A stretch of DNA of 56,423 nucleotides from Anaerolinea sp. (GCA_020725705.1 DYEN01000577.1:1-56423); one strand, 5' to 3'. Counted from the first letter of the stretch, positions 444 through 29,279 are shown. The notes: generated by a model from the sequence alone, not told the origin. Translations and numbers: made by a program.

Positions 444-458
444 TGCGCGCCCGGCCCG

Positions 459-7655: not shown

Positions 7656-8654
7656 ATGAGGTGGGCCATGACGAGATGGAGTAAACGAGCCGGGATGGCA
7701 TTGGGATCGCTGGCGGGGGGCGCGGCGCTGGCCGCCGGTGGCTGGATCGCCTACAGCCGTCTGGCGATCGATCATCACCTGCCGCTGCCGCCCGCGCTGG
7801 ATGCGGAACGCGAGCGGTTTGGGGGTGGCTTTGCGGGCAGCCTGCACGCCTATGTGGACCGGTCGGGCGCGGGGGTCCCGCTGGTGCTGTTGCACAGCAT
7901 CAACGCGGCAGCCTCGGCCTACGAGGTTCGCCCGCTGTTCGAGCGTTTCCGGGGACGGCGCCCCGTCTACGCGCTGGAGCTGCCGGGCTTTGGGTTTTCC
8001 GAGCGAGCCAACCGGCCCTATACGGCCCGCGTCTACACCAACGCGATCATCGACCTGCTAGAAACCCGGCTCGACGGCCCGGCAGACCTGCTCGCGCTGT
8101 CGCTGAGCGGCGAGTTCGCCGCCCGCGCTGCTCTTGAGCGGCCCGCACGGGTGCGGTCGCTGGCGCTGCTATCGCCGACCGGGTTGGGACCAGACCAGGC
8201 GCGGCGCGGGCCGAACGAGCGCGTCCACCGCCTGCTCTCGTTCCCGCTGTGGAGCCAGGCTCTCTACGACCTGCTGGTGACGCGCCGCAGCATCCGCTCC
8301 TTCCTGCGCCAGAGCTTTTACGGCGAGCCGGATGATGGGCTGGTCGCGTATAGCTATCTGACCGCCCATCAGCCCGGCGCGCGTTTTGCCCCGCTGGCGT
8401 TCCTCAGCGGCAGACCCTTCTCCCCGGACATCCGCCAGGCCGTCTACGAAAAGCTGACCCAGCCTGTGTTGGTGCTCTACGACCAGGACCCCTACACCCG
8501 CTTCGACGCCCTGCCGGACCTGTTGATGCAGCACGACAACTGGCAGGCGCAGCGCATCATCCCGTCGCGCGGGCTGCCGCACTTCGACCAGCCGGAGCAG
8601 ACCTTCCAGGCGCTCGAAGCGTTCTGGCAGGGGCTTGAGAACGGCGCGAGCTAA
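7656..8654 (+). CDS. Alpha/beta-fold hydrolase
   Basis: Oxyanion-region LVLLHSINAAASAYE, nucleophile-elbow-like LALSLSGEF, and an N-terminal TM/signal segment. Start chosen at the ATG at 7656; the longer ORF from 7548 has no support. Confidence 0.75.
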   Translation: MRWAMTRWSKRAGMALGSLAGGAALAAGGWIAYSRLAIDHHLPLPPALDAERERFGGGFAGSLHAYVDRSGAGVPLVLLHSINAAASAYEVRPLFERFRGRRPVYALELPGFGFSERANRPYTARVYTNAIIDLLETRLDGPADLLALSLSGEFAARAALERPARVRSLALLSPTGLGPDQARRGPNERVHRLLSFPLWSQALYDLLVTRRSIRSFLRQSFYGEPDDGLVAYSYLTAHQPGARFAPLAFLSGRPFSPDIRQAVYEKLTQPVLVLYDQDPYTRFDALPDLLMQHDNWQAQRIIPSRGLPHFDQPEQTFQALEAFWQGLENGAS

Positions 8655-9532
8655 AGCGCCTCCGCCACGAACTGGATCTCGACCTGCCCGTTCTCGATGC
8701 GCGCTCGATAACGCGGCTGTGGAAAGGTCGCCGGGCCGTGCACCACCCTGCCGTCGCGCACATCGAAGACCGAGTCGTGCCACGGGCACTGAACACAGGT
8801 GCCGTCGAACGTTCCTTCTTCTAGCGGGCCGCCCGCGTGCGAGCACACCGCGCCGATGGCGTAGACCGTTCCCCCGAAGCGGTAGAGCAACACGGGCGCG
8901 CCCTCAACCTCGACGCGATGCGGCCGGTGCTCGACCAGCTCGCTTGCGGGCATCACGGCAGTCCAGTCGCCCGGCCCGGACGGCTTGGGGGCGTGGTTGA
9001 CGCCGACCCGTTTGCGGAAGACCAGCTCGCCGCCCAGATAGCCGCCCACCGTCACCCACCCGAAGCCTAGCAGTGAGAGCGCCGTCGCCAGCCCACGCCG
9101 GTCCTGGCGGCGCGCGATCAACGACAGCCCGTAGAACGTCAGCGCCACATCGTTGACGATCGCGTGCAGCGCGGCCAGCGGCGCCGCGTCGCGCTTGATC
9201 GCGGAATAATCGGCCAGGCCGGTCAGCGCGGTCGGGATCGCCGCCGCCGTCCCCAGGCCGGTCAGCGCGTCCCCGGCCCGCTGCGTCCGCTCCGAGCGCG
9301 TCAGCAGACCGGCAAGGTCGAACAGGCTCCCGAAGCTCCACCCGCCGATGGTAAGGTCGGTCAGCAGCGGATGCGCAGGATGCCCGAGCCACTTGCCGTG
9401 CAGCACATCAATCGCCCGGCGCGCCGGTTCGCCCGCCCCCAACACCGCGCGGTGCATCGCCTGGGCAGCCTGGCGGGCGAAACGCGTAAAGCCCGGCACG
9501 CGCTCGATCACACTGGTCAAAAGCATCATCAC
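8651..9532 (-). CDS. Membrane protein with N-terminal DUF2231-like domain fused to a C-terminal Rieske [2Fe-2S] domain
   Basis: 293 aa. N-terminal polytopic part with LGHPAHPLLTDLTIG. C-terminal Rieske motifs CSHAGGPL ... CPWHDSVF. Confidence 0.8.
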   Translation of the reverse strand: MMMLLTSVIERVPGFTRFARQAAQAMHRAVLGAGEPARRAIDVLHGKWLGHPAHPLLTDLTIGGWSFGSLFDLAGLLTRSERTQRAGDALTGLGTAAAIPTALTGLADYSAIKRDAAPLAALHAIVNDVALTFYGLSLIARRQDRRGLATALSLLGFGWVTVGGYLGGELVFRKRVGVNHAPKPSGPGDWTAVMPASELVEHRPHRVEVEGAPVLLYRFGGTVYAIGAVCSHAGGPLEEGTFDGTCVQCPWHDSVFDVRDGRVVHGPATFPQPRYRARIENGQVEIQFVAEAL

Positions 9533-9700
9533 ACGTTACTGTCCTTTCTGAAGCATGCCGCGCAACGGTGCGCAGCGAAAAGCAGCGCTATCTCGTATTA
9601 TGAACTTAGATCGATTAGCAGCCGTCTGCCCACTGGCCGGGCGACCCGGCGCGCGTCGCCGCGTGGAGCTGGCCGGCACATTCTGAAAGCGCAGGACGCC

Positions 9701-10513
9701 ATGCTGCCACAGCAACAACTCATCACGCGCGTGCGCGCGCTCGCCGAGCGTGACGCCCGCCTGAACGCGCTGATGATGTACGGCTCATTCACACGGGGCG
9801 AAGGCGACGCCTACTCGGATATCGAGTTTCTGCTGTTCTTCGAGGACGCGGCGTTCGACCAGGTCGCGCCGCGAGCGTGGATCGAACAGGTCGCGCCGGT
9901 GCTGCTGGACTACACCAACGAGCACGGCATCGTCGAGGTGATCTTCGACAACCTGGTGCGCGGCGAGTTTCATTTTCACCGCGTCTCCGACATGCCCATG
10001 GCGGAGTCCTGGCGCGGCGTGGTGACGTTTCCCACGCTGGAATCAACCCTGCTGGTCGACAAAACCGGCCATTTCGCTGCGTACCTCGCCCCGCTGATCG
10101 GGCCGCCGCCGGAGCGCGCCACACCCGCCGCGCTGGAAACGCTGGCGCGCCACTTCGCCAATCTCTGGCTGTTCGGCCACAACGTCCAGCGGCGCGGAGA
10201 GCACGCGCGGGCGCTGGAGATGTTGAACGGCGTGCACCGCGCGCTGTTGCACCTGGCGCGCGCCGTCGAAGGGCAGACGGCCAACTGGCTGACACCCTCA
10301 AAAGGGCTGGAGCAGGACCTCGGCGCCGACTCTTACGCACGCTTCCGCGCCTGCACCGCGCCGCTGGATCCGGCTGCGCTGAGCCGCGCTTATGCGGAAA
10401 GCTGGCTGTGGGGACGCGAACTGCTCGACCGCGTCGAGGCGCAATACGGGATTGGGTTGCCGGGCGCGGTGCTGGAGCGGCTGTCGGGTCTGGCGGGCGC
10501 GCTGAGCACCTAG
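9701..10513 (+). CDS. Nucleotidyltransferase, lincosamide nucleotidyltransferase Lnu(B)/Lnu(F)-like
   Basis: 270 aa. Motifs MMYGSFTRGEGDAYSDIEF, VIFDNLVRGEFHF and NLWLFGHNVQRRGEHARALEML match my recollection of Lnu(B)-type enzymes. ATG at 9701 has AGGA 5 nt upstream. The upstream part of ORF 9164..10513 is antisense to the Rieske gene. Confidence 0.7.
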   Translation: MLPQQQLITRVRALAERDARLNALMMYGSFTRGEGDAYSDIEFLLFFEDAAFDQVAPRAWIEQVAPVLLDYTNEHGIVEVIFDNLVRGEFHFHRVSDMPMAESWRGVVTFPTLESTLLVDKTGHFAAYLAPLIGPPPERATPAALETLARHFANLWLFGHNVQRRGEHARALEMLNGVHRALLHLARAVEGQTANWLTPSKGLEQDLGADSYARFRACTAPLDPAALSRAYAESWLWGRELLDRVEAQYGIGLPGAVLERLSGLAGALST

Positions 10514-14175: not shown

Positions 14176-14481
14176 CTATTCGGGGCGAGGCAACGCCTCG
14201 ATCTGCCCGATCAGCGCGAAGTCGCGCTCGGTGATACCCCCGGCGGAATGGGTCATCACGCGGACCGTCAGGTGTTTGTAGTCGTGAAGATGCAGGTCCG
14301 GGTGATGATCGAGGCTCTCGGCCAGGTGCGCGATCGCATTGAGAAAGAGGATCGCGCGGCTGAAGTTCTTGAAGACGAACTCCGCGTAAAGCTGCCCGTC
14401 GTCACCCAACTGCCACGCCGGATAGCTGCCAAGCCGCTCGCGGACAGCCGCTTCACTCATGGGCTGCGCTTGCTCTGGCAT
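14176..14481 (-). CDS. phhB: Pterin-4-alpha-carbinolamine dehydratase
   Basis: 101 aa. NAIAHLAESLDHHPDLHL.Y..LTVRVMTHSAGGITERD is the canonical PCD/DCoH core. Confidence 0.88.
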   Translation of the reverse strand: MPEQAQPMSEAAVRERLGSYPAWQLGDDGQLYAEFVFKNFSRAILFLNAIAHLAESLDHHPDLHLHDYKHLTVRVMTHSAGGITERDFALIGQIEALPRPE

Positions 14482-14758
14482 GGATGTCTCTCCTGCACAA
14501 CGTGTCGTGGTTTATTCCAGCCGCCCCTTACCGCCCGCCTGCAATCCCGGCGCGCGAGTGGGCAATTGCGTGCAGATTATACGATAAATTAAAAGGAACT
14601 CATAAGAAACTTGCGTGTTTCTAAAGCACTGCTAATGCGGAGCGTGTAACCTGTCATCCGAACACGGCATCTGATAATACGTATGCGCGTTGCAACTCTT
14701 CACTACCGCAGCGATGCAGACACCGGACGGGTTTGAACAACGGAACGAGGATGAGAGC

Positions 14759-15418
14759 ATGGCGAACAATGGGAAGCTGGCCGGTACGGGAAATGGGAAC
14801 GGCCACGTGCAGCAGGCTGTCGAGCGTCTGGCTGCCCAGACCTTTCACGCGCTGGACTCGCGCGCGGCGATTGAAGAAGCGGTCAAGCTGATCTTGATCA
14901 ATGTGGGCGAGGACCCCAACCGCGACGGGCTGTTGCGCACGCCGCAGCGTGTCGCGCGCATGTATGAAGAGCTGCTCGAAGGCTATCACCAGGATTTGCA
15001 AGCCGTCCTCAACGACGCGCTGTTCGATGTGGAATATGGCGAGGGCGAGATGGTGGTTGTGGCCGATATCGAGTACCAGTCGCTGTGCGAGCATCATATG
15101 CTGCCGTTTGTGGGCAAAGCGCACGTTGCCTACATCCCGCGCCACAAGATCGTCGGCCTCAGCAAGATCCCGCGCATCGTGGATATGTTCGCCCGGCGTC
15201 TGCAGGTGCAGGAGCGCATGACCAACGAGATCGCGGACGCGCTTGAGGAAGTGCTCGATCCCGTCGGCGTGATAGTCGTCGTCGAAGGCCAGCATAGCTG
15301 CGCGTCATTGCGCGGCGTCAAGAAGCACGGCGTCAACATGGTCACCACCGCCAAGCGCGGCGAGTTCCGCACCAACCGCGACCTGCGCGACGAGTTCTAC
15401 CGGCTGATCGGGCGCTAG
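14759..15418 (+). CDS. folE: GTP cyclohydrolase I (FolE)
   Basis: [59 protein letters not shown]. Start chosen at the ATG at 14759 with GAGGA upstream; the ORF is open from 14690. Confidence 0.93.
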
Positions 15419-15453: not shown

Positions 15454-16221
15454 ATGGACCTGCACGAGAAGGTTGTCCTGGTGACCGGCGGCGCGCACCG
15501 CGTCGGCAAAGCGATTGCCCTTGCCTTCGCCGGGGCGGGCGCGCACGTCGTGATCCACTACGGCTCGTCGGAAGATGCCGCGCACGCCACCGCCCGCGAG
15601 ATCAAATCGCTCGGCGTGCAGGCGCTCGTCGTCCAGGCGGACCTGGCGGACCCGGCGGCCATCGCGGACCTGTTCGAGGCGGTGCGCGATCGCTTCGGGC
15701 GGCTGGATGTGCTGGTCAACAGCGCCGCGAACTTCATCAAACAGCCATTCGACGAAGTCACGCTGGACGCCTGGAAAGATGCCATGCAGGTCAACCTGCG
15801 CGCGCCGTTTTTCTGCACGCAGCATGCCGCCCGCCTGATGCGCGCCACGCCCCGCCCTGCCGACCAGCCCGCCGCCATCATCAACATCGGCGACCTGGCG
15901 GGGGTGCACCCCTGGCGCGATTTCGTGCAGCACGGCGTCGCCAAGGCCGGGCTGCTTCACCTCACCAAGATCAGCGCGCGCGAACTGGGGCCGGACGTGC
16001 GCGTCAACGCCATCGTGCCCGGCGCCATCCTGCCCCCGGCCTCGATCGCGCCCGACAGCGAGCGCTGGCAGGCGATGGGCGAAAGCGTTCCGCTGCGCCG
16101 CACGGGCCACCCCCGCTACGTGGCGCAGACCGCTATCTTTCTGGCGCAAAACGACTACATTACCGGCGCGATCATCCCGGTCGACGGAGGTGAGCACCTG
16201 ATCGGCATCGGCACGCACTAG
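15454..16221 (+). CDS. Short-chain dehydrogenase/reductase, pteridine-reductase (FolM/PTR1)-like by context
   Basis: VLVTGGAHRVGKAIALAFAGAGAHVVIHYGSS cofactor-binding turn, NSAA and SDR-fold motifs. Lies 35 nt downstream of folE. Confidence 0.8.
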   Translation: MDLHEKVVLVTGGAHRVGKAIALAFAGAGAHVVIHYGSSEDAAHATAREIKSLGVQALVVQADLADPAAIADLFEAVRDRFGRLDVLVNSAANFIKQPFDEVTLDAWKDAMQVNLRAPFFCTQHAARLMRATPRPADQPAAIINIGDLAGVHPWRDFVQHGVAKAGLLHLTKISARELGPDVRVNAIVPGAILPPASIAPDSERWQAMGESVPLRRTGHPRYVAQTAIFLAQNDYITGAIIPVDGGEHLIGIGTH

Positions 16222-16370
16222 ACCGCTGCCCCCGCTCTCCGAGTGCCGGCCCCACAACCCAAATCAATCCGTTGCAATCACGAGGCTGCCCCGCGCTCGT
16301 CCGGCGCGCCGTGCCGCCTGTGCTCTCCCTACCCTGAGCTGCCGGACACCAGAACCACAGGAGCAACTAC

Positions 16371-17153
16371 GTGAACACAGCCAACCCTGCCACCGAGCAG
16401 ACCTTCCGCAATCTGCGCCGCTTTAACCTGATCATGGGTGTCTTCCACCTGATTCAGGGCCTCGTGATGCTGATCATCAGCAACGATTTCACCGTCCCGA
16501 TCAACACCTACTTCCTCAAATTCGTCGAAGGCGAGGGGTTGGTCAGCGACCCGCAAACCTGGTTCGAGCTGCCGCTTGGGCCGTTCATCGCGTCGTTTCT
16601 GTTCATGTCCGCCATCGCGCACTTTGTCATCTCCCTCCCCGGCGTCTACGAGTGGTACGTGCGCAACCTCAAGCGGGGAATCAACTACGCCCGCTGGGTC
16701 GAGTACGCCTTCAGTTCGTCGGTGATGATCGTCGCCATCGCCACGCTGTTCGGCATGTACGACGTCGCCGGCCTGCTGGCGTTGTTCGCGCTCAACGCCG
16801 CGATGATCCTGTTCGGCTGGATGATGGAGCTGCACAACCAGACCACCGAGCGCACCAACTGGACGGCCTTCATCTTTGGCTGCATCGTCGGCATCGTGCC
16901 GTGGATCGCGATCGGGATCTACTTCGTCGGCTCGGTCACCAGCGGCGAGAACGTGCCGGACTTCGTCTACGCGATCTACATCTCGCTGTTCCTGTTCTTC
17001 AACATCTTCGCGCTCAACCAGTTCTTGCAGTATAAACAGGTGGGCCGCTGGAAGGATTACCTGTTCGGCGAGCGGATGTACATTGTGCTGTCGCTTGTCG
17101 CCAAGTCGCTGCTGGCGTGGCAGGTCTTCTTCGGCACGCTCCAGCCCAGCTAA
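16371..17153 (+). CDS. Heliorhodopsin (seven-TM retinal protein, inverted topology family)
   Basis: 260 aa, GTG start with AGGAG upstream. Family motifs run along the whole length: FNLIMGVFHLIQ, RWVEYAFSSSVMIV (counterion Glu), MILFGWMME, FGCIVGIVPWIAIGIY, ISLFLFFNIFALNQFLQ, GERMYIVLSLVAKSLLAWQVF (Schiff-base Lys). These match my recollection of heliorhodopsin 48C12. Confidence 0.92.
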   Translation: MNTANPATEQTFRNLRRFNLIMGVFHLIQGLVMLIISNDFTVPINTYFLKFVEGEGLVSDPQTWFELPLGPFIASFLFMSAIAHFVISLPGVYEWYVRNLKRGINYARWVEYAFSSSVMIVAIATLFGMYDVAGLLALFALNAAMILFGWMMELHNQTTERTNWTAFIFGCIVGIVPWIAIGIYFVGSVTSGENVPDFVYAIYISLFLFFNIFALNQFLQYKQVGRWKDYLFGERMYIVLSLVAKSLLAWQVFFGTLQPS

Positions 17154-17166
17154 GGGCGGTTACTTC

Positions 17167-17232
17167 CCCTCACCCCGGCCCCTCTGCAAGTGCGTCACGG
17201 GGAAGGGCAAGCCTGAGCGGGCGGGGTGAGGG
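17167..17232. repeat. GC-rich palindromic intergenic (REP/MITE-like) element, copy A
   Basis: An 11-bp inverted repeat, CCCTCACCCCG (17167..17177) and CGGGGTGAGGG (17222..17232), brackets 44 nt. More CCC/GGG-rich hairpin sequence continues to about 17280. It has the same GGGTGAGGGCC terminus as the copy at 34388..34503. Confidence 0.55.
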
Positions 17233-17367
17233 CCTGAGCAGCCGCCACCCGCTCCCCGTGTCCCAGGGCAGAGGGTTGAGGACCGGCAAGTGCATAACAC
17301 GCTCCAGACACGCGCGCCGCTTCGGGCGCTCGTGCATACAAATCCGAAACCGATCGGGAGGTGAACC

Positions 17368-18309
17368 GTGGCAGCCGAACAACCGCTTCATGTCGTTTTG
17401 GGAACCGGGGCGATCGGCATTGCCGTCGCCGAAGCGCTGGTCCAGAGGGGCGAGCGTGTCCGCGTGGTGAACCGGCGAGGCAACGCGGCTATCCCTGGCA
17501 TCGAGCCTGCCGCCGCAGACGTGAGCGATCCGGGGCAGGCGCGCGAGGTAATGGCCGACGCCAGCGTGATCTACAACTGCACGAACCCCTCGGCCTACCA
17601 CATCTGGCCGGATGTGCTGCCACAGCTGCAGGCGGGCATCCTGGCAGGTGCAGAAGCTGCGGGCGCCAGGCTGGTGGTGATGGACAATTTGTACATGTAC
17701 GGGGCGACACACGGCACGCCGATGACCGAAGACATGCCCTATGCCGCGACGACGAAGAAGGGTCGCCTCAGGGCCGAGATCGCCGAGAAGTGGATGGCCG
17801 CGCACCGGGCCGGTCGCGTGCCGGTTGTCATCGCCCGCGCCTCGGACTACTTCGGGCCAAACGGGCGCGCCGCCATGCTCGACGCGGTGTTTGGCCGGGC
17901 CGTGCGGGGCAAGAGCGCGCAGGTGATCGGCGATCCGGACATGCCGCACACCTACACTTACGTGCCGGATATCGGCAAGGCGCTGGTGATTCTGGGTGAG
18001 CGCGATGAGGCGCTCGGCGAGGTCTGGCACGTGCCCAGCCCGGAAACCCTCACGACGCGTGCCTTCATCGAGCGGATCGCAGACGCGCTCGGCCGGCCGA
18101 TCAAGATTCAGGTCGCGTCCACGTGGTTGCTGCGCGTCATGGGGCTGTTCCAGCCGACGATGCGCGAGCTGATCGAGATGGTCTACGAGTTCAACGAGCC
18201 ATTCATCGTTGACGACAGCAAATTCAAGGCCGCGTTCGGAGACATCGCAACCCCGTTGGACGTCGCGATCCCGGACACGCTGGCGTGGTACCAACAGCAC
18301 ATGGACTAG
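17368..18309 (+). CDS. NAD(P)-dependent epimerase/dehydratase-family (atypical SDR) oxidoreductase
   Basis: 313 aa. N-terminal Rossmann turn VLGTGAIGIAVAEALVQRGERVRVVNRR. GTG start with GGGAGG upstream. Confidence 0.75.
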   Translation: MAAEQPLHVVLGTGAIGIAVAEALVQRGERVRVVNRRGNAAIPGIEPAAADVSDPGQAREVMADASVIYNCTNPSAYHIWPDVLPQLQAGILAGAEAAGARLVVMDNLYMYGATHGTPMTEDMPYAATTKKGRLRAEIAEKWMAAHRAGRVPVVIARASDYFGPNGRAAMLDAVFGRAVRGKSAQVIGDPDMPHTYTYVPDIGKALVILGERDEALGEVWHVPSPETLTTRAFIERIADALGRPIKIQVASTWLLRVMGLFQPTMRELIEMVYEFNEPFIVDDSKFKAAFGDIATPLDVAIPDTLAWYQQHMD

Positions 18310-18356: not shown

Positions 18357-18731
18357 ATGACGGGCGCTCAGGATAAAATCATCATTAAGAACCTGCTGCT
18401 GCGCGGCATCATCGGGATCAACGACTGGGAACGCGAAAAGCGGCAGGACATCCTGGTTAACCTGACGCTCTTCGCCGATCTGCGCGCTGCCGGGCAGTCG
18501 GACAGCGCGGACGATATCCTAAACTACCGCACGATCACCAAAGCGGTGATCGACTATGTGGAGAACTCGCAGCACTACCTGGTCGAGGCGCTGGCGACCG
18601 CGATCGCGCGTATCTGCGTGGTCGAGCACGGGGTGCCGCGCGTGATCGTGCGCGTCGAAAAACCGGGCGCGCTGCGCTTCGCCGAATCCGTCGGCGTCGA
18701 GATCGAGCGGACACGGGCCGACTTTGAGTGA
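18357..18731 (+). CDS. folB: Dihydroneopterin aldolase (FolB family)
   Basis: 124 aa. IIIKNLLLRGIIGINDWEREKRQDILVNLTLFADL ... LNYRTITKAVIDYVENSQHYLVEALA is the typical FolB/FolX fold sequence. Confidence 0.85.
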   Translation: MTGAQDKIIIKNLLLRGIIGINDWEREKRQDILVNLTLFADLRAAGQSDSADDILNYRTITKAVIDYVENSQHYLVEALATAIARICVVEHGVPRVIVRVEKPGALRFAESVGVEIERTRADFE

Positions 18732-19251
18732 GATCATCCTGATCACGCTTGGCTCGAACCTGGAGCCGGAAATCCACCTGCCGCGCGCGGTTCGCCTGCT
18801 GGCGGAGCGTGTGCGGGTGGTGGGTGTCTCACGGGTGTACGAGTCGCCCGCGGTCCGCGCTGACGGCACGCTCGATCCGGCGCAGCCACCCTTCCTCAAC
18901 GCCGCCGCCCAGATCGAAACCGATCTTGAGCCGGTGCCGCTCAAGTACGATGTGCTGCGCGCCATCGAGGCGGAGATGGGGCGGCAGCGAAGCCCCGACA
19001 AGTTCGCGCCGCGTGTGATCGATCTGGACATCGCGCTTTACGGCGATCTGCTGCTCCAGCTTGACACGGAAGACACGCATCTTCTGCTGCCCGATCCGGA
19101 CATTCTGGATCGGGCGCACGTGGCGCTGCCGCTGGCCGATCTGGCGCCCGATCTGATTCACCCAACCAGTGGCGAAACCCTGCGCGCCATCGCCGACCGT
19201 TTCGCGGGCATCAGCACCATCCGCGTCCGCCCGGATATCCGGCTCGACTGA
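18724..19251 (+). CDS. folK: 2-amino-4-hydroxy-6-hydroxymethyldihydropteridine pyrophosphokinase (HPPK)
   Basis: ILITLGSNLEPE ... SRVYESPAV ... PFLNAAAQIET ... APRVIDLDIALYGD. Overlaps the folB stop by 8 nt; the start codon is probably TTG. Confidence 0.85.
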   Translation: MSEIILITLGSNLEPEIHLPRAVRLLAERVRVVGVSRVYESPAVRADGTLDPAQPPFLNAAAQIETDLEPVPLKYDVLRAIEAEMGRQRSPDKFAPRVIDLDIALYGDLLLQLDTEDTHLLLPDPDILDRAHVALPLADLAPDLIHPTSGETLRAIADRFAGISTIRVRPDIRLD

Positions 19252-19400: not shown

Positions 19401-20069
19401 ATGAGTGAAGAGAAACCGCCTGTCGTTCCACCCTCGCCTGAACCGCCGCTCGAACCGGAGCAAACCCCGGCCGAGCCTGAAGCCGCCAGCCCGCCGGAAC
19501 CGTCCCCGCAACCCGCTGCGGCGATCCCGGAAGCGCCATCCCAGGCAGCCGAAGCACCCCCCGCGGCCCCGCCCGCTGAGCCGGAGCCGGCGGCGCAGAT
19601 CCGCTCGATTCCCCCGCTTCCCGATCGGCCCGCGCTGCGCAGCAGCGAATACTGGCGGCGGCGGAGCGACAACCTGCTGGTACAGCTTGGCATCGACGGC
19701 AGCCTGGCCGCGCGCGCGCTGTTGCTCGCCGCCGTGCTGGCCGCCATCGGCGCGCTGCTCGATGAGATCCTGGGGCTGCCGGGAGAAACGCTGCGTGTCT
19801 CGTTCGGCGGGACGCTGGTCGCCGGGCTGAGCGGGCTGAGCTATGGCTTCTTCAAGGGCCGCGCCGACCTGCCCGGCCTGATCATGGCCGCCGTCGCCGG
19901 GCTGGTCGCTTACGTGGTCTGGTATGTGGTCAAGGACATCATCGGTGTAGCCGGCTTCGAGATGAATCTCTTTAAGGCCATCTTCAGCGGGCTGCTGGCG
20001 GGGATCCTGGGCTTCGGGTGGCTGGTGCTGCTGCACGAGGCCCCCAAACTGCTGGCGCGGGAACCCTAA
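19401..20069 (+). CDS. Hypothetical membrane protein with Pro/Glu/Ala-rich N-terminal region
   Basis: 222 aa. About 85 aa of low complexity (PEPPLEPEQTPAEPEAASPPEP...) is followed by about 4 hydrophobic helices. No recognisable motif. Confidence 0.5.
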   Translation: MSEEKPPVVPPSPEPPLEPEQTPAEPEAASPPEPSPQPAAAIPEAPSQAAEAPPAAPPAEPEPAAQIRSIPPLPDRPALRSSEYWRRRSDNLLVQLGIDGSLAARALLLAAVLAAIGALLDEILGLPGETLRVSFGGTLVAGLSGLSYGFFKGRADLPGLIMAAVAGLVAYVVWYVVKDIIGVAGFEMNLFKAIFSGLLAGILGFGWLVLLHEAPKLLAREP

Positions 20070-20343
20070 GGGCTGAGACGACCAAACGCCTGGACAGCAC
20101 TCTGACCCGGGTCGGGGTCGGCGTCGCGGCGAACACGCTCCACACGTCAGTGATGGAGCCGGGCACGTGCCGCCTGGGGCCGCGGGAACAGAGCGGCCAG
20201 AGGCCATCATCAACTCACCCAACCGGATCGCCGGGGAAGATGTAAGAGGCGATCCGGAAATGTTACCTGCCTGTGTCAGGCATCGGCAACGCTGTGACCG
20301 TTGGAGCAGATCGCGATTGCCTCTTGCAGCCTCGCCAAACCGT

Positions 20344-20997
20344 CTAGTCGATCAATCCCCGTTGCAGGGCATATCGTATGAGTTCGCTGCGGGAGTTAAG
20401 GTTTAATTTGCGCATGACATTGCCGCGATGAAAGTCAACCGTTTTAGGTGTAATAAACAATGCTTCTGCAACTTGCTGGTAGGTATTGCCGCGCGCCAAC
20501 ATGACCAATACTTCGCGCTCGCGCTCAGTTAACGTGTCCAGCAAGTCAGTCGGTGTCTGGATGTCACGCCGCACGCCGTCCACTAGGACGCCGGTAATCC
20601 TTGGATCAAAGAAAGTGTCGCCCGCAGCAACAGCGCGAATCGCTGAAAGCAATTCATCCCCGTCGGCCCGCTTGAGGACATATCCGGAAGCACCAAGCTT
20701 GAGTGACGGAATGATATATTCCTTATTCTCGTGTTGCGTCAAGATCAAGACTCGAATTTCCGGGAAGGCATCCTTGATGGCCCGCGTTGCTGCCAGTCCA
20801 TCCATGCCCGGCATACCGATATCCATCAGAACGACATCGGGCTGTAGCTCGCGCACCCGTGCCAATGCTTCCTGGCCGTCGCCCGCATCACCGACAACCT
20901 CAAAATCGGGTTGCACGTCGAGCAGGGCGCGAATACCAGCGCGCAAGACGGAGTGATCGTCGACGATCAATATTCGGATTTTTGAGAACACCGGCAT
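20344..20997 (-). CDS. Response regulator, NarL/LuxR (FixJ) family
   Basis: REC domain ([13 protein letters not shown] ... [13 protein letters not shown] ... ILTQH) plus LuxR-type HTH ([43 protein letters not shown]). Start taken at [10 protein letters not shown]. Confidence 0.92.
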
Positions 20998-21054
20998 TGC
21001 TCGTTCAGCCCTCAGAAAGCTTTTGTATGCCAGATCGTACCCCAACCAAGGAAA

Positions 21055-23382
21055 TCAGGGCGAAGTCTCTTCCGGATGGTAAGATCGCACGTCGTGCTCT
21101 ATGGCGAGCGGGATCTCTGCCCGCACGCGGGTGCCGCGGCCCAACTGTGACTCGAGATGAAAGCTCCCAGAGAGCAGATCGGCGCGTTCTTTGATTCCTA
21201 ACAAACCCCAACCGCGCCCTTCTCTTTCACGGATCTCCAGGGCGTTCGCGAGGTCGAACCCTTTGCCGTTGTCGTGGATCTCCAACATGACTCGATCGCT
21301 ATCCGCCCGCATCTTGATCTTGACTTCGCTCGCTTCAGCATATTTGGAGATGTTCGTCAACGCTTCCTGCGCGATTCGAAAGAGCGCGGTTTCGATGTCC
21401 GGCGCGAACCGCACCTTATCATCTCCCTCGATTTCCCATATTACCTTAATACCGAGCTTTTCCAGGCGAGATTCTGCATACCAGCGAATGGCCGGAAGCA
21501 ACCCCAAATCGTCCAGCAGGCTCGGACGCAGATCGTAAATAACCGTCTGCAATTCTCGCACAGCGTCACTGGTGGAGACGCGCAGCCGCTTGAGGATTTC
21601 CCCGGCATCCATAGAAGGATCCGTCAGCGCCAGTTCAGCCGTTTTCAGGCCGAAGATCAGGGCATTAAGGGATTGACCGAACTCATCATGGAGTTCGCGC
21701 GCGATACGCTTCCGCTCCTCCTCTTGTGCGCGGATCGCTTTTGCCAGCAGTTGCGCCCGCAGGCGCTCTTTGTCTTTCAGATCGTTCCACAGCCGGGCAT
21801 TCTCCAGCGCGACACCCAGCTGAGAGCCAATCATCACCATAAGGCGGAAGTTCTCCTCGGTGAAAAATGAAGGGCTATAGGCGGCCACATTCAAGGCACC
21901 GATTACCCGACCACCCTCAATGAGGGGAACGCTGGCATGACAATGCACCGGTTTGCCGCTGCTGCTGTGAGAATGGGACAAGACGCAGTTGTGTCCCGGC
22001 GTTACGATGATCGGGCTTTTCGTGCGAAGCACAAGCCCGCAATCGCACTCAGGAAAGCGCACACTGAGCTGCACAAGGGGTTCGGCAAAGCCGGCTACGG
22101 CGGCCAGATAGGGCGGTGAGTTCTCACGCGCAATGGCGATCCACCCTGCCGGCAGGTCGAGCACTGCCAGCACCTGTTCAAGGGCTTCTTGCAGCATATG
22201 TTCAATGTTGCTGCTGCGTCGGTTCATAATCGCAGATATAGCGTTCAGTGTTGCCAGTTCGCGATTCTGGCGCTGGATCTCGGCTTCTTTTGCCTTGCGT
22301 TCAGTGATATCCCGGGTGAACCAGGCTAATGCACGCTTCCCTTCATATTGAATGATAGTGCCGCTTGTCTCCACAATAACCGCACGGCGATCCCGCGTCA
22401 GGAGCTGCATTTCATGCCTTAGCGCGGTGCTCTTGCCATCCCGGATAGTCTGCCATGCCTCGTACGCGGCGTTTAGGCTGTTGGGATGGATAACCTCTGC
22501 CGCGTTGAGGTTCAGCAGATGCGTGCGCTCGTAACCGGTGAGGCGGCAAAACTCATCGTTAACGAACAAGAAGCTGCCCTCATTAACCGCCTCATCGCAA
22601 ATCAAGGCGATGCCTTCGCCAACCTGCCCTGCAGCCTTGAGCAGCGCACGATACCCTGCCCGCGAGTCTTGAAGCTGGGTAATCGTTCCCTGCAGGTCTA
22701 CCGCCATGGCGTTGAACGCTCGCGCGAGATCGCCGATTTCGTCTCGATTATTGATGGAAATCGTCTGGGTCAAATCTCCGGAGCCGAAACGCTGAACCCC
22801 TTCGGTCAAGCGGGAGAGAGGACGCGTGACGATGCGTGCAAATACAATCGCAGCCACAACGCCAGCCATCATCCCAACCGCTGTCAGGCCGAAAATGATC
22901 CAGGTCAGATCTTGAAGGACATCAGTTATGCCGGTTTGACTGAAGCCAAGATGGAGTTCGATATCGAGTTTGTCGGTCAGACGCCAACCGAAATCCTGAA
23001 TGACGCCTGCTTCGGTTCTCAACAACGTTTGTTGTGTAAGCTGCCCGGCAGGCATAGCGTTTGCGGCCAGCAGGTCCACGGGAAACCCATTAGCAAAGGT
23101 GTGGACGACAACACGTCCCGGAGCGCCAATTGCATAGGCATAGATAATGTTGGGATTAGACCCCTTTAGATATTGGAGAAACTCCTGAACCGCTACCATA
23201 TCGCCTTCTAGCAAGGCGTTGGCGATGGCATTTCCGGATATTTGCACCAGGGCTGAGCCATGAGCATCCAGCTCGCTGCTCAATTTACTGGCAACGACCG
23301 TGTTGATCGCCCCGATTGTCAGCACGCCCAGGCTGATGACAATCAGAGAGGTGAAGATAATGATCTTGGTATGTAGTTTCAT
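21055..23382 (-). CDS. Sensor histidine kinase (TM, periplasmic domain, TM, HAMP, PAS, GAF, HisKA_3, HATPase_c)
   Basis: 775 aa. Two TM helices flank a periplasmic segment of about 135 aa. HAMP (LSRLTEGVQRFGSGDLT...IGDLARAFNAMA). PAS ending in FTRDITERK. A GAF-like block. H-box RIARELHDEFGQSLN (NarX/HisKA_3 type). G-boxes HDNGKGF and GWGLLGIKER. ATGA overlap with the upstream binding-protein gene. Confidence 0.92.
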   Translation of the reverse strand: MKLHTKIIIFTSLIVISLGVLTIGAINTVVASKLSSELDAHGSALVQISGNAIANALLEGDMVAVQEFLQYLKGSNPNIIYAYAIGAPGRVVVHTFANGFPVDLLAANAMPAGQLTQQTLLRTEAGVIQDFGWRLTDKLDIELHLGFSQTGITDVLQDLTWIIFGLTAVGMMAGVVAAIVFARIVTRPLSRLTEGVQRFGSGDLTQTISINNRDEIGDLARAFNAMAVDLQGTITQLQDSRAGYRALLKAAGQVGEGIALICDEAVNEGSFLFVNDEFCRLTGYERTHLLNLNAAEVIHPNSLNAAYEAWQTIRDGKSTALRHEMQLLTRDRRAVIVETSGTIIQYEGKRALAWFTRDITERKAKEAEIQRQNRELATLNAISAIMNRRSSNIEHMLQEALEQVLAVLDLPAGWIAIARENSPPYLAAVAGFAEPLVQLSVRFPECDCGLVLRTKSPIIVTPGHNCVLSHSHSSSGKPVHCHASVPLIEGGRVIGALNVAAYSPSFFTEENFRLMVMIGSQLGVALENARLWNDLKDKERLRAQLLAKAIRAQEEERKRIARELHDEFGQSLNALIFGLKTAELALTDPSMDAGEILKRLRVSTSDAVRELQTVIYDLRPSLLDDLGLLPAIRWYAESRLEKLGIKVIWEIEGDDKVRFAPDIETALFRIAQEALTNISKYAEASEVKIKMRADSDRVMLEIHDNGKGFDLANALEIREREGRGWGLLGIKERADLLSGSFHLESQLGRGTRVRAEIPLAIEHDVRSYHPEETSP

Positions 23383-24374
23383 GGCTGCAGCAGACCATAT
23401 ATCCTGGCCCAGTGGCGCAGGTCATCGTAGTCACTAGCCACGACTAACCCAAAACCATTGGGCATTTCGGTGCGCTCCCAATGATATAGCTCCAACCCAT
23501 TCAGGCGCTTGGGGTTGAAAGCAAGCAATGCCTGCTGCACTGCGTCGGCCACTTCGGCAGGAACATGAGCGCCGGCGATGATTCCGCTAGACGGAAACGG
23601 GTCTGATTGGGCGATGATGCGGACAAGCCCCTGTTCTGCCAGAGTTCTTCCTAAAGTATCCTGCACTGCACCGGCATCGACTCGGCCGCTAATCACCGCG
23701 TTAGAGGTCTCAAAATGCGACCTCGTGAACTCGTGAGACTGCAAATCGCCAAGCTCAATGCCCGCCTGGGACATCATAATTCGGGGAATGAGATATCCCT
23801 GAGTGGAGTTGCTGGCCCCAAAAGCAAAGGTATGGCCTGCCAGATCGCGTAATGATTTCAGGTCGCTGTCAGGTCGGGAGACAATCAGCGATCGATACGA
23901 GCCTTCACCGTTTGAATTCAACCCACAGACCAGCATGGTGGCCGCCGAAACTTCGCGTACCTGAAGGTATGTAAGCGTGCCGGCTATGGCGAAATCTACC
24001 TGTTCCGCCAGGATCTCGCGCACCAGACTTCCAGCCTTGGGGGTAACGTGCAGCCTGAACTTGTAACCCGTTTCATTTTCAAGATATTGGAGCAGCCCGG
24101 AGTAGATGCGTACATCCTCTTTTGGCTCAAGTCGCCGGTCAAAGCCGAAGCTGTAAACCGGTTCAGATTCCACTGTAGCGGGCCAGCGGACTTCCCCTCG
24201 AATCAGGTTGTTCTCTAATGACACATTGACAGGCTCTTTGTCGGTATTCAGGCACGCAGAACCGGCCAGGAGGATGCCAAGGCCGAACATCAGGCCCGCT
24301 GCAACCCGGAGCTTGTTTCCTGGCTGAATACCCGCCGAAATGCTGTACAACCATGAAAACTTTAATGACATCAT
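23379..24374 (-). CDS. PhnD-like (phosphonate/phosphite ABC-type) periplasmic substrate-binding protein; no transporter partner, coupled to the kinase
   Basis: 331 aa. N-terminal signal/anchor ending LLAGSAC. Type-2 PBP core (YSFGFD..., FAIAGTLTYLQ, STQGYLIPR) typical of the PhnD family. No ABC permease or ATPase lies next to it. Its stop overlaps the kinase start. Confidence 0.8.
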   Translation of the reverse strand: MMSLKFSWLYSISAGIQPGNKLRVAAGLMFGLGILLAGSACLNTDKEPVNVSLENNLIRGEVRWPATVESEPVYSFGFDRRLEPKEDVRIYSGLLQYLENETGYKFRLHVTPKAGSLVREILAEQVDFAIAGTLTYLQVREVSAATMLVCGLNSNGEGSYRSLIVSRPDSDLKSLRDLAGHTFAFGASNSTQGYLIPRIMMSQAGIELGDLQSHEFTRSHFETSNAVISGRVDAGAVQDTLGRTLAEQGLVRIIAQSDPFPSSGIIAGAHVPAEVADAVQQALLAFNPKRLNGLELYHWERTEMPNGFGLVVASDYDDLRHWARIYGLLQP

Positions 24375-24873
24375 ATCCCCACAAGGCGCCTACGCCTTCT
24401 AGAGCGTGTTAAGAACTGAACGAGAAACACGCACCGGCCTCGAGTTTTCGTGCAGGGGCGACGCTTGCATTGCGCGCGGCCAACCCATCTCGCGTGTAAC
24501 CCAGGCGGAGCAAGGCGCCCCCTCGCGCGATACCGGGTCTCCGATCCGGTCTGTAAGTGTTCATAACCGTCTTCTAGGACAAGGCACGCGATTTTTGGCG
24601 AGTATGCCACAAGCCATCCTTTCATCAAAACAACTGCGGACAATTCCTAGGAAATTCCCCAGGTACAACCCCGGTTCCTTCCCCAGTTAACCTGACTATC
24701 TCTGCCGCCTACAATCGAAGATGTATCAGTGTGCGTATAGCCCTGTTTCCCCTGCGAGAAACCAAGGCAACAAGGAGTGTGACTTATGTCTGGAGAATCC
24801 CTTGACGCAGGCTTCATGCCATGAGCGTGCCTTCGAGGTATGTGCTGTGGCAAGAACAAAGGAGAAATTAGAC
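24375..24873. promoter_or_regulatory. Divergent control region between the sensor operon and the molybdoenzyme operon
   Basis: 499-bp non-coding gap between divergently oriented genes. It contains a perfect 10-bp palindrome TTCCTAGGAA (24644..24653) and a 12-codon mini-ORF with a strong AAGGAG site (24786..24824). Confidence 0.5.
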
Positions 24874-25785
24874 ATGGCCAAAGATGACGATCTGTTGAGA
24901 GAAGCGCTCGCTGGTGACGAGACCAGCCGCCGTTCCTTTCTGGGCAAGTTTGCAGGCGGGGTATTTGCCGGCCTGGTGGCGCCCGCGCTGATAGGTGAGG
25001 TGCGCGCCGCTCACGCCGCCCCTGACACCCAGGAACAGCCAGACCTTGCGCCGCTTCCTGACCTGCCCGAGGCGATCGAAGGAGAGCACCCGGTTGTGCG
25101 CATGATGGAAGACCTGCGCCGCGCTTTGCAGAAGCCGATGGCCGAGCGTAAGTGGGCGATGGTGATCGATCTGCGCAAGTGCACCGGTTGCAACGGCTGC
25201 AATATCAGCTGTGTAACCGAGAACAAGCTGCCGCCTGGGGTCACGTACCGTCCGGTAATGACCGAAACCCAGGGAACCTATCCGCACGTGTCGCGCCGGT
25301 TTGTTCCACGCCCCTGCCTGCAGTGTGAAGATCCCCCCTGTGTGCCTGTCTGCCCGGTCAGGGCAACGTACAAACGCGCGGACGGGATCACAGTCATTGA
25401 CTACGAACGGTGCATTGGCTGCCGGTATTGCATGACAGCCTGCCCCTACTCGGCCCGGTACTTCGATTTCGGTCGGTTCTACGGGGACAATGAAGGCGGC
25501 GAGCGCCAGCCCTATGAGCTGCTACCCACACCGGAATATCGCAAGAACTACGACCGGGCCGAAGGCGGCTCCCCGATTGGAAACGTGCGCAAGTGTCATT
25601 TCTGTATTCATCGCATCGAGCACGGTGAACTGCCAGCCTGCGTGCTTAGCTGCATGGGCCGGGCAACCTACTTTGGCGATATGAACGATCCTGCCAGTTT
25701 GGTCTCGGAACTTATCGCTCAACCCAATGTCATGCGACTCAAGGAAGAGTTGGGAACCGATCCCAAAGTCTTCTATCTTGTCTAG
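24874..25785 (+). CDS. Tat-exported 4x[4Fe-4S] ferredoxin-type electron-transfer subunit (NrfC/TtrB/PsrB-like)
   Basis: Twin-arginine motif [12 protein letters not shown]. Four Cys clusters: [60 protein letters not shown] at 24874 preceded by AAAGGAGAA. Confidence 0.9.
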
Positions 25786-25796
25786 GAGATACAACC

Positions 25797-29269: not shown

Positions 29270-29279
29270 GAGGAAGAAA

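What the first reader, a model, noticed from the sequence alone, without database searches (positions are those of the whole stretch)
16371..17153. Clear heliorhodopsin gene
The 260-aa product carries the heliorhodopsin signature along all seven helices. The motifs are FNLIMGVFHLIQ, RWVEY (counterion Glu), SSSVMIV, MILFGW, FGCIVGIVPWI, ISLFLFFNIFALNQFLQ and GERMYIVLSLVAKS (Schiff-base Lys). Heliorhodopsins are inverted-topology, non-pumping photoreceptors, and their cellular outputs are still largely unresolved. Each new conserved genomic context is therefore informative. No retinal-synthesis gene (blh or crt) is visible in this window.
Basis: partly seen in the sequence, partly recalled or inferred. 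Interest (0 to 1): 0.75.

Follow-up and report, generated by a model that had tools for sequence, protein, structure and literature searches.

The report
Heliorhodopsin gene inside a pterin/folate cluster
This is a genuine but ordinary heliorhodopsin (a light-sensing membrane protein) from an Anaerolineae bacterium; its only unusual feature is that in this bacterial family the gene sits inside a pterin/folate cofactor gene cluster, probably as a passenger rather than a working part.

Summary
The ORF at 16371-17153 (+), 260 aa with a GTG start, is a heliorhodopsin (HeR). It matches Pfam PF18761 over its full length (347 bits) and the NCBIfam HeR equivalog (362 bits). It is 48-54% identical to the solved TaHeR and 48C12 structures, and the AF2 model superposes on them at TM 0.90-0.92. 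The Schiff-base Lys (K245), counterion Glu (E111) and the His pair (H26/H84) are all in place. Loop charges predict a cytoplasmic N-terminus. dN/dS of 0.11-0.35 shows the gene is maintained. The host is an Aggregatilineaceae (Chloroflexota) bacterium, and relatives at 79-83% identity are already annotated "heliorhodopsin HeR".

The context is the new part: PCD | FolE - pteridine-reductase-like SDR - HeR - atypical SDR - FolB - FolK - membrane protein. This arrangement recurs in nine genomes of one HeR clade (74-92% identity). It is absent from about 75 other HeR loci. Two nested lineages have HeR elsewhere. A related genome has the same cluster with a TIR-domain gene in the HeR slot. HeR never abuts its neighbours, has no conserved upstream motif, and has no loop signature tied to the cluster. 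The best reading is a single ancestral insertion into a pre-existing pterin operon. Functional coupling is possible but unproven. No blh or crt gene is present, which is typical for HeR.

The parts
16371..17153 (+). Heliorhodopsin gene (260 aa, GTG start). Key residues: H26, H84, E111 (counterion), K245 (retinal Schiff base).
16360..16363 (+). GGAG Shine-Dalgarno, 7 nt before the GTG start. It is the only element conserved upstream of HeR in the nine orthologous loci.
17155..17246 (+). Long GC-rich hairpin just after the HeR stop codon, including an exact 11-nt inverted repeat (17167-17177 / 17222-17232). It has no T-run and is not significantly more stable than shuffles, so it is only a possible attenuator or terminator.
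   Evidence: (-55.5 kcal/mol, z = -1.46).
14176..14481 (-). Pterin-4a-carbinolamine dehydratase (PCD), divergent from FolE.
   Evidence: PF01329; NF002017, 80 bits, at the cut-off.
14690..15418 (+). GTP cyclohydrolase I (FolE), the first gene of the same-strand run. The database gene call starts at 14759.
   Evidence: (TIGR00063, 231.6 bits against a cut-off of 181.6).
15454..16221 (+). Pteridine-reductase-like SDR, always immediately upstream of HeR. It has TGGAHRVG (TGxxxRxG), D147 at the Ser position, H160 at the catalytic Tyr position, and K164.
   Evidence: best model NF006598 pteridine reductase, 217 bits, below the 288 cut-off.
17368..18309 (+). Atypical extended SDR of the Epimerase family ('Epi') with no conserved YxxxK. 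It is present between HeR and FolB in only 3 of 9 clusters.
18357..18731 (+). FolB-domain protein, either a dihydroneopterin aldolase or a FolX-like epimerase. It overlaps FolK by 8 nt.
   Evidence: TIGR00526 97 bits; TIGR00525 73.1 against 72.15; FolX model 107.7, below 152.
18724..19251 (+). HPPK (FolK).
   Evidence: TIGR01498, 87 bits against a cut-off of 54.
19401..20069 (+). Conserved unannotated membrane protein (hyp222): a Pro/Glu/Ala-rich N-terminal region followed by 3-4 predicted TM helices. It follows FolK in 7 of the 8 other cluster loci (all but L008).

Best explanation
The gene encodes a bona fide heliorhodopsin: a seven-helix membrane protein with its N-terminus in the cytoplasm. 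It would bind all-trans retinal at K245, with E111 as counterion and H26/H84 as the proton-accepting cluster. By analogy with characterised prokaryotic HeRs, it should not pump ions. Instead it should act as a slow-cycling light sensor that modulates a partner protein through direct contact. That step is inferred and was not tested here. The gene entered the junction between a pteridine-reductase-like SDR and FolB, inside a pre-existing FolE-SDR-FolB-FolK pterin/folate cluster, in an ancestor of the Aggregatilineaceae-type clade, and it has been inherited there since. It is co-oriented with these genes and probably at least partly co-transcribed with them. The evidence favours a passenger in a permissive slot over an obligate functional component of the pterin pathway. 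Retinal must come from genes outside this window or from the environment.
For: Identity: full-length HMM hits far above cut-off; E 4e-78 and 2e-71 to TaHeR and 48C12, key residues aligned; the residues are invariant; pLDDT 89; TM 0.92 and 0.90; A-B beta-hairpin; K+R 12 against 1. Maintained function: (dN/dS 0.11-0.35, the same range as FolE and FolB). Lineage. Single inherited insertion: the cluster is seen in nine genomes that form one clade. It is absent from about 75 HeR loci at 54-62% identity. Passenger reading: L178 has FolE-SDR-[TIR gene, opposite strand]-FolB-HPPK in the same UbiA/PMT_2 synteny, and L179 has FolE-SDR without HeR. Two nested lineages carry HeR elsewhere. Epi is present or absent in the same slot. 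HeR is separated from its neighbours by 26-240 nt, whereas FolB and FolK overlap. No upstream motif is conserved. No loop signature separates embedded from relocated HeRs. The outer synteny is also largely conserved, so the position may simply be inherited. Partner-regulation precedent: PMC9529153, PMC9769723 and PMC11109279.
Against: Retention of HeR in the same slot, on the same strand, across lineages with pS of 0.34-0.59 is also what selection for co-expression would produce. The core FolE-SDR-HeR-FolB-FolK persists in L008 although the outer synteny is lost there. In L013 and L015, HeR ends only 26-27 nt before FolB, which leaves little room for a terminator and a promoter. An SDR neighbour is one of ten recurrent HeR partners listed by Cho et al. 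2024. No retinal binding, photocycle, transcription or interaction was measured. The tree is an unbootstrapped NJ tree.
Confidence: 0.7

Rival explanations
1. HeR is a functional part of the pterin/folate cluster. It acts as a light sensor that adjusts the supply of reduced pterins or folates. These cofactors are photolabile, and methenyl-tetrahydrofolate is the antenna of photolyases. HeR would do this either by being co-transcribed with the pathway or by binding and modulating the adjacent pteridine-reductase-like SDR or FolB in the light.
For: The order FolE-SDR-HeR-(Epi)-FolB-FolK is the same in nine genomes, always on the same strand. The core is kept in L008 where the flanks differ. Gaps of 26-27 nt to FolB occur in L013 and L015. 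Cho et al. 2024 list an SDR-neighbour group of HeRs, and direct HeR-enzyme regulation is shown for glutamine synthetase, photolyase and an ABC transporter.
Against: It is a single evolutionary event: 0 of about 75 other HeR loci have FolE, FolB or FolK within 10 kb. HeR left the cluster twice. The same slot holds a TIR gene in L178. No loop signature or conserved regulatory motif was found. An IS insertion separates the SDR from HeR in A. lenta. The large neighbour surveys read here do not report pterin or folate genes near HeRs, and literature co-mentions are incidental.
Confidence: 0.2
2. HeR signals through the neighbouring two-component system, the HAMP-PAS-GAF histidine kinase at 21055-23382 and the LuxR-type response regulator at 20344-21045. 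This follows the proposal for HeRs in general by Bulzu et al. 2021.
For: Both genes lie within 4 kb of HeR. Bulzu et al. report histidine kinases and response regulators within 10 kb of HeRs in several phyla, including Chloroflexi.
Against: They are on the opposite strand. They lie in a roughly 17-kb segment, partly low-GC (0.55-0.60 against 0.65-0.68), that is absent from A. lenta, L094 and L096, where the cluster is followed directly by UbiA-CNNM-PMT_2. tblastn found no homologue next to HeR in other cluster loci.
Confidence: 0.03
3. The protein has a role that does not depend on ambient light, or is not sensory. Examples are a lipid- or fatty-acid-related activity as speculated by Chazan et al., or proton conduction as in viral HeRs. 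The lineage is often recovered from dark habitats.
For: Relatives come from anaerobic membrane bioreactor MAGs (L016 and L084). The type species A. lenta was described from subseafloor sediment; this is from my own recollection of the species description and was not verified here. Chazan et al. raise a lipid-remodelling idea. Viral HeRs conduct protons (PMC9448325, cited).
Against: All chromophore-site residues are invariant and under purifying selection, which argues for retinal photochemistry. Proton transport has been shown only for viral HeRs. No DegV or DUF2177 neighbour is present here.
Confidence: 0.07

Closest known systems
TaHeR, Thermoplasmatales archaeon heliorhodopsin (PDB 6is6, 7u55)
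   Same: 53-54% identity over the full length. TM-score 0.92, rmsd 1.5 A. Same counterion Glu, Schiff-base Lys, His pair and A-B beta-hairpin.
   Different: Archaeal host with a different genomic context. The loop after helix E is 4 residues shorter in TaHeR.
HeR 48C12, the founding actinobacterial member (PDB 6su3, 6uh3, 9ljj)
   Same: 48-50% identity, TM 0.90. H23/H80/E107/K241 correspond to H26/H84/E111/K245.
   Different: Different phylum and different neighbours.
Aggregatilinea lenta HeR (WP_119067709.1), annotated 'heliorhodopsin HeR'
   Same: 79% identical. It sits in the same PCD | FolE-SDR-HeR-Epi-FolB-FolK-membrane protein cluster and the same outer synteny.
   Different: In A. lenta a roughly 3.2-kb IS-containing insertion, flanked by a 169-bp direct duplication, separates the SDR from HeR. 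The window instead has a roughly 17-kb insertion after the cluster.
Partner-regulating HeRs: glutamine-synthetase-binding HeR (PMC9529153), TfHeR-photolyase (PMC9769723), OcHeR-OmrDE ABC transporter (PMC11109279)
   Same: Same protein family. These are the mechanistic model assumed here: light-dependent modulation of a protein encoded next to HeR. Cho et al. also list an 'SDR family' neighbour group.
   Different: None of those partners (GS, photolyase, MDR ABC transporter) is adjacent to HeR here. The gaps to the neighbours (149 and 214 nt) are larger than the -20 to 30 nt those authors treat as operonic. No interaction has been shown for any SDR-group HeR.
FolM/PTR1-type pteridine reductases and the FolE-FolX-FolM tetrahydromonapterin route
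   Same: The upstream SDR scores best against NCBIfam 'pteridine reductase'. It has TGxxxRxG and Asp in place of the catalytic Ser. It sits between FolE and a FolB/FolX-like gene, with PCD nearby.
   Different: The score is below the equivalog cut-off. The catalytic Tyr is His (H160) in all nine orthologues and in a wider subfamily. By sequence it is no closer to PTR1/FolM than to FabG/FabL structures.

Membership tests
Heliorhodopsin (Pfam PF18761 / NCBIfam NF038020) | Full-length match to the family profile above the curated cut-off | tested here: met
   PF18761: 347.1 bits against 26.7, profile positions 1-242 of 242. NF038020 equivalog: 361.9 bits against 100.
Heliorhodopsin (Pfam PF18761 / NCBIfam NF038020) | Retinal Schiff-base Lys in helix 7 (K241 of 48C12) | tested here: met
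   K245 aligns with K241. It is invariant in 40 sequences and lies in helix 230-257 of the model.
Heliorhodopsin (Pfam PF18761 / NCBIfam NF038020) | Single counterion Glu in helix 3 (E107 of 48C12) and the His23/His80 pair | tested here: met
   E111, H26 and H84 align with E107, H23 and H80. All are invariant.
Heliorhodopsin (Pfam PF18761 / NCBIfam NF038020) | Seven-helix HeR fold with a long beta-hairpin between helices A and B | tested here: met
   AF2 pLDDT 89; helices 9-36, 69-87, 106-126, 132-158, 165-190, 197-222, 230-257; strands 41-52 and 56-68. TM 0.92 to 6is6 and 0.90 to 6su3, with type-1 rhodopsins at about 0.6. That the A-B hairpin is an HeR hallmark is from memory, not checked here.
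Heliorhodopsin (Pfam PF18761 / NCBIfam NF038020) | Inverted topology (N-terminus cytoplasmic) | tested here: met
   Positive-inside count: loops on the N-terminal side have K+R = 12, the other side 1. This is a prediction only, not an experimental result.
Heliorhodopsin (Pfam PF18761 / NCBIfam NF038020) | Binds all-trans retinal, absorbs visible light, has a slow photocycle and no ion pumping | not testable with these tools
   Requires heterologous expression, spectroscopy and transport assays.
Heliorhodopsin (Pfam PF18761 / NCBIfam NF038020) | Host is a monoderm prokaryote (HeRs reported absent from diderms) | tested here: met
   The closest named relatives are Aggregatilineaceae, Anaerolineae, Chloroflexota. 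That Anaerolineae are monoderm is established knowledge and was not tested here.
HeR-partner operons (ten neighbour groups of Cho et al. 2024, incl. the SDR group) | Partner gene adjacent to HeR, on the same strand, predicted to share one promoter (intergenic distance around -20 to 30 nt) | tested here: inconclusive
   The SDR is adjacent and on the same strand in 8 of 9 loci, but the gaps are 40-164 nt (149 nt here). HeR-to-FolB is 26-27 nt only in L013 and L015. No promoter or terminator was detected above chance. I could not open the paper's supplementary list of SDR-group members.
Pteridine reductase / FolM-type SDR (for the upstream neighbour) | Match to the NCBIfam pteridine reductase equivalog above cut-off | tested here: not met
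   NF006598 is the best model, but at 217.5 bits against a cut-off of 288.
Pteridine reductase / FolM-type SDR (for the upstream neighbour) | TGxxxRxG cofactor motif and the Asp-Tyr-Lys catalytic triad of PTR1 | tested here: not met
   TGGAHRVG, D147 and K164 are present, but the Tyr position is H160, invariant in nine orthologues. The motif definition is from memory; the literature check failed.
Folate/pterin biosynthesis cluster (FolE, FolB, FolK, PCD) | Profile matches above cut-off for the individual enzymes | tested here: met
   FolE TIGR00063: 231.6 against 181.6. FolB domain TIGR00526: 97.3 against 45. FolK TIGR01498: 87.1 against 54.1. PCD NF002017: 80 against 80.

The most novel reading that the evidence does not exclude
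In Aggregatilineaceae the heliorhodopsin has been recruited as a light input to pterin/folate cofactor metabolism. It would be co-transcribed with FolE-SDR-FolB-FolK and bind the unusual Asp-His-Lys pteridine-reductase-like SDR (or FolB) in the light to tune the supply of photolabile reduced pterins or folates. That would give HeRs a fourth, previously undescribed class of enzymatic target.
Probability: 0.15. Interest if true: 0.6.

Novelty: new member of a known kind. Interest (0 to 1): 0.3.

Why it matters
What prokaryotic heliorhodopsins do is still largely open, and only three partner systems have been demonstrated. A clade in which HeR is stably embedded in a pterin/folate cluster gives a concrete, cheap hypothesis to test, and Aggregatilinea lenta is a described species that carries the same arrangement. 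The comparative evidence here suggests the link is probably an inherited insertion rather than a functional module. The locus therefore adds a data point, not a new principle. The gene itself would be recognised automatically by standard annotation.

Tried and rejected
1. RNA elements. Rfam at gathering thresholds found nothing in the whole window, including no THF or other riboswitch near FolE. Promoter and terminator scans over 14.0-20.5 kb were at chance level. Folds of both HeR-flanking intergenic regions were not better than shuffles (z = -0.37 and -1.46).

2. Conserved upstream motif. An alignment of nine SDR-HeR spacers showed only the Shine-Dalgarno sequence.

3. Partner-surface signature. 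Comparing cluster-embedded with relocated HeRs showed no loop-specific divergence.

4. Reciprocal probe with the SDR on metagenome contigs. Only relatives at 49% identity or less were returned. A few lay near FolB/FolK and none near HeR, so this did not answer the empty-site question. The question was answered instead by two look-ups of closer SDR homologues.

5. L033 seemed to show a 62%-identical HeR next to FolB/FolK. It is a contig that switches lineage in the middle of the HeR gene (95.6% identity to L013 only from that point on), so it is probably an assembly chimera and was excluded.

6. L010/L011 'SDR-HeR-epimerase' in the sister clade. Its SDR is only marginally similar to the window's SDR (23% identity, E 9e-7) and its 492-aa protein has no significant similarity to Epi, so this is not the same module.

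7. N-terminal SDR segment against the PDB, to test PTR1 affinity. It did not discriminate.

8. AF2 of Epi. The single-sequence model had pLDDT 49.8, too poor for a fold search.

9. PHROGs on unannotated ORFs gave nothing useful.

10. Literature tools. Several searches and all supplement look-ups timed out. As a result, the membership of Cho et al.'s SDR group, the TGX3RXG motif and the isolation source of A. lenta are not verified from papers.

Full report
OBSERVATION. The window contains an ORF at 16371-17153 on the + strand with a GTG start, encoding 260 aa, exactly as reported. Its GC3 is 0.92 and its GC2 is 0.35, the pattern of a real gene in this genome of about 65% GC. The overlapping antisense ORFs do not show that pattern. 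A GGAG Shine-Dalgarno sequence lies 7 nt upstream of the GTG. The ORF cannot be extended, because GTG is the first start codon after the upstream stop.

WHAT IT IS. The protein matches Pfam Heliorhodopsin PF18761 from end to end (347 bits, E 5.8e-104, cut-off 26.7). It also matches the NCBIfam equivalog 'heliorhodopsin HeR' (362 bits, cut-off 100). Nothing else scores meaningfully. Against solved structures it matches TaHeR (6is6, E 4e-78) and 48C12 (6su3, 6uh3, 9ljj; E about 1e-71) over the whole length. In those alignments H26, H84, E111 and K245 fall on H23, H80, E107 and K241 of 48C12. All four are invariant in an alignment of 40 homologues at 60-96% identity.

An AlphaFold2 model built on that alignment is confident (pLDDT 89, pTM 0.84). 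It shows seven long helices plus a beta-hairpin at 41-68 between helices A and B. Foldseek places it on TaHeR at TM 0.92 (rmsd 1.5 A) and on 48C12 at about 0.90. Type-1 rhodopsins follow far behind at TM about 0.6 and E about 1e-3. Loops on the N-terminal side carry 12 Lys+Arg against 1 on the other side, which predicts the cytoplasmic N-terminus typical of HeRs. Pairwise dN/dS against eight orthologues is 0.11-0.35, the same range as FolE and FolB next door, so the gene is maintained by selection. Retinal binding, the spectrum, the photocycle and the absence of ion transport cannot be tested with these tools.

ORGANISM. The closest named homologues are from Aggregatilineaceae and other Anaerolineae MAGs (92-79% identity) and from Aggregatilinea lenta (79%; WP_119067709.1, already annotated 'heliorhodopsin HeR'). 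The lineage is Chloroflexota; Anaerolineae; Aggregatilineales. The identical protein occurs on at least seven public contigs.

SURROUNDINGS. HeR lies in a same-strand run: FolE (14690-15418), an SDR (15454-16221), HeR, an Epimerase-family protein 'Epi' (17368-18309), a FolB-domain protein (18357-18731), HPPK/FolK (18724-19251, overlapping FolB by 8 nt) and an unannotated protein, hyp222 (19401-20069). Pterin-4a-carbinolamine dehydratase is divergent upstream at 14176-14481.

The SDR scores best against NCBIfam 'pteridine reductase', but at 217 bits it is below the 288-bit cut-off. It has TGGAHRVG and Asp147 at the position of the classical catalytic Ser, which as far as I recall are PTR1/FolM features. 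At the catalytic Tyr position it has His160, invariant in nine orthologues. The same Arg/Asp/His/Lys combination occurs in 12 of 80 more distant metagenomic relatives, so it marks a wider subfamily. By overall sequence the SDR is no closer to PTR1/FolM structures than to FabG/FabL. I therefore call it pteridine-reductase-like and do not file it as a member.

Epi is an atypical extended SDR without a conserved YxxxK. hyp222 has a Pro/Glu/Ala-rich N-terminal region and 3-4 predicted TM helices. No photolyase, glutamine synthetase, DegV, DUF2177, blh or crt gene is present anywhere in the window.

HOW CONSERVED THE CONTEXT IS. I collected HeR loci in three ways. These were contigs encoding the same or related HeR proteins, 80 HeR loci from one-genome-per-species contigs, and tblastn of the window's neighbour proteins against all of them.

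The arrangement FolE-SDR-HeR-(Epi)-FolB-FolK, usually with PCD divergent and hyp222 downstream, is present in nine distinct genomes. They are the window, L013, L015, L008, L014, L007 (A. lenta), L094, L096 and L097, with HeR identity of 74-92%. In an NJ tree all nine fall in one clade. None of about 75 HeR loci at 54-62% identity, from Patescibacteria, Actinomycetota, other Chloroflexota and archaea, has a FolE, FolB or FolK homologue within 10 kb. So this is one evolutionary event and not a recurrent association.

Within the clade, two nested lineages have HeR elsewhere. L016/L093 has it after an ABC importer, and L095 has it between an aminotransferase and RsgA. The sister clade (L010/L011) has a B12-binding protein, a histidine kinase, an SDR only marginally similar to the window's, HeR and a 492-aa NmrA/DUF2867 protein unrelated to Epi.

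Epi is present in only three of the nine clusters. In A. lenta a roughly 3.2-kb IS-containing insertion, bounded by a 169-bp direct duplication of the SDR 3' end, now separates the SDR from HeR.

Two SDR orthologues from outside the HeR set are decisive. L178 (SDR 67% identical, on a 4.18-Mb contig) has FolE-SDR-[TIR-domain gene on the opposite strand]-FolB-HPPK, followed by UbiA and PMT_2 as in the HeR-bearing genomes. L179 has FolE-SDR-glyoxalase, with FolB, HPPK and PCD 5 kb away. The pterin cluster therefore pre-exists HeR, and the SDR|FolB junction is a slot that accepts different cargo.

OPERON ANATOMY. FolB and FolK overlap in nine of the ten loci compared. HeR is always separated from its neighbours: 40-164 nt from the SDR (149 nt here) and 26-240 nt from the next gene (214 nt here). 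The upstream spacers share nothing but the ribosome-binding site. Rfam finds no RNA family in the window. Promoter and terminator scans are at chance level. The GC-rich hairpin after the HeR stop codon (17155-17246, -55.5 kcal/mol) is not significantly better than shuffled sequence (z = -1.46). Co-transcription is plausible, given the same strand and the 26-27 nt gaps to FolB in L013 and L015, but it is not shown. Cytoplasmic loops of relocated HeRs are as similar to cluster-embedded ones (72-79%) as the embedded ones are to each other (77-81%), so there is no sign of a cluster-specific interaction surface.

MECHANISM. Shown: the protein is a canonical HeR at the levels of sequence, fold and topology, and it is under purifying selection. 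Inferred from the family: it binds retinal at K245 and acts as a slow-cycling sensor that modulates a partner by contact, as demonstrated for glutamine synthetase (PMC9529153), photolyase (PMC9769723) and an ABC transporter (PMC11109279). Inferred from comparative context: the gene was inserted once into a pterin/folate cluster and inherited there.

I weigh 'passenger in a permissive slot, possibly co-expressed' at roughly three times 'functional regulator of pterin/folate supply'. The second idea has a rationale, because reduced pterins and folates are photolabile and MTHF is the photolyase antenna; that rationale is established knowledge and was not tested here. Cho et al. 2024 also list an SDR-neighbour group among ten recurrent HeR contexts.

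The nearby histidine kinase and response regulator (20344-23382, - strand) are not conserved partners. They lie in a roughly 17-kb segment, partly low-GC, that is missing from A. lenta, L094 and L096, where UbiA-CNNM-PMT_2 follow the cluster directly.

COMPARISON WITH THE LITERATURE. Bulzu et al. 2021 (PMC8612252) and Chazan et al. (bioRxiv 10.1101/2021.02.16.431466) analysed thousands of HeR neighbourhoods. They highlight glutaredoxin/GSHPx, histidine kinases, glutamine synthetase, DegV and DUF2177. Bulzu et al. contains no occurrence of 'pterin', 'folate' or 'cyclohydrolase', and the passages of Chazan et al. retrieved here mention no such genes. Full-text searches for heliorhodopsin with 'folate' or 'pterin' returned only incidental co-mentions. 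As far as this library shows, the HeR-pterin cluster linkage has not been described. Chazan et al. also report that blh is rare near HeRs and in HeR-only genomes, so the missing retinal genes are typical.

VERDICT. This is a new member of a known kind that standard pipelines would annotate automatically. The lineage-specific embedding in a pterin/folate cluster is a modestly interesting and testable lead, but the evidence leans towards inherited insertion. Interest is 0.3.

Noticed in passing
window 15454-16221 (+): The pteridine-reductase-like SDR has His (H160) where SDRs and PTR1 have the catalytic Tyr, together with TGxxxRxG and Asp147. The combination is invariant in nine orthologues and occurs in 12 of 80 distant metagenomic relatives. 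It may define an uncharacterised Asp-His-Lys SDR subfamily.
   Followed up: partly
window 19401-20069 (+): A conserved membrane protein with no Pfam, NCBIfam or PHROG match. It has a Pro/Glu/Ala-rich N-terminal region of about 90 aa and 3-4 predicted TM helices. It follows FolK in 7 of the 8 other cluster loci and also occurs in the HeR-less L178.
   Followed up: partly
window ~20100-37500: A segment of about 17 kb that is absent from A. lenta, L094 and L096, where UbiA-CNNM-PMT_2 follow the cluster directly. The first 12 kb have GC 0.55-0.60 against 0.65-0.68 elsewhere. They encode a LuxR-type response regulator, a HAMP-PAS-GAF kinase, a phosphonate-type binding protein and a Fer4/molybdopterin/NrfD oxidoreductase. 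The rest encodes a sugar ABC transporter, a DHDPS-family lyase, a BNR/sialidase-like protein and an IclR regulator, possibly for sialic-acid use. It is likely a horizontally acquired insertion. No integrase was seen.
   Followed up: partly
L007 (A. lenta) 6505-10000: An insertion of about 3.2 kb carrying a DDE transposase and two unannotated genes lies between the SDR and HeR. It is bounded by a 169-bp direct duplication (99.4% identical) of the SDR 3' end, which leaves a 58-aa SDR fragment just upstream of HeR.
   Followed up: yes
L178 7766-8848 (- strand): In a related genome the slot between the SDR and FolB, occupied by HeR in this window, holds a 360-aa TIR-domain protein on the opposite strand. 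This suggests the junction is a hotspot for cargo genes.
   Followed up: partly
L033 7402-9328: A contig of a 'Caldilineales' MAG switches lineage in the middle of its HeR gene. From position 7799 on it is 95.6% identical to the Aggregatilineaceae contig L013, while the 5' half is a distant HeR. It is probably an assembly chimera, or less likely a recombinant HeR.
   Followed up: partly
L010 / L011 6960-12318: In the sister HeR clade (72% identity) the gene order is B12-binding-domain protein, HisKA kinase, classical SDR (210 aa), HeR, and a 492-aa Epimerase/NmrA/DUF2867 protein. That places a cobalamin-type putative photoreceptor module next to HeR.
   Followed up: no
L022, L030, L056: HeR genes at 54-58% identity sit on contigs of MAGs labelled 'uncultured Gammaproteobacteria'. 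This is at odds with the reported absence of HeRs from diderm bacteria and may reflect mis-binning or mislabelling.
   Followed up: no
window 54000-56423 (- strand ORFs 54023-54349, 54369-54881, 55058-56419): GC skew is strongly negative here (-0.35), and three consecutive ORFs have no Pfam or PHROG match.
   Followed up: partly
window 46017-47495 (+): A 492-aa highly acidic Ala/Glu/Pro-rich protein (A 17%, E 15%, P 15%) with no Pfam match. Its composition resembles the N-terminal region of hyp222.
   Followed up: no
window 114-2216 (+): This 700-aa ORF has no Pfam hit and an odd composition (Arg/Gln/His-rich, GC1 0.84). It is probably not the true coding frame, so the real gene there may be on the other strand or run off the window.
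   Followed up: no
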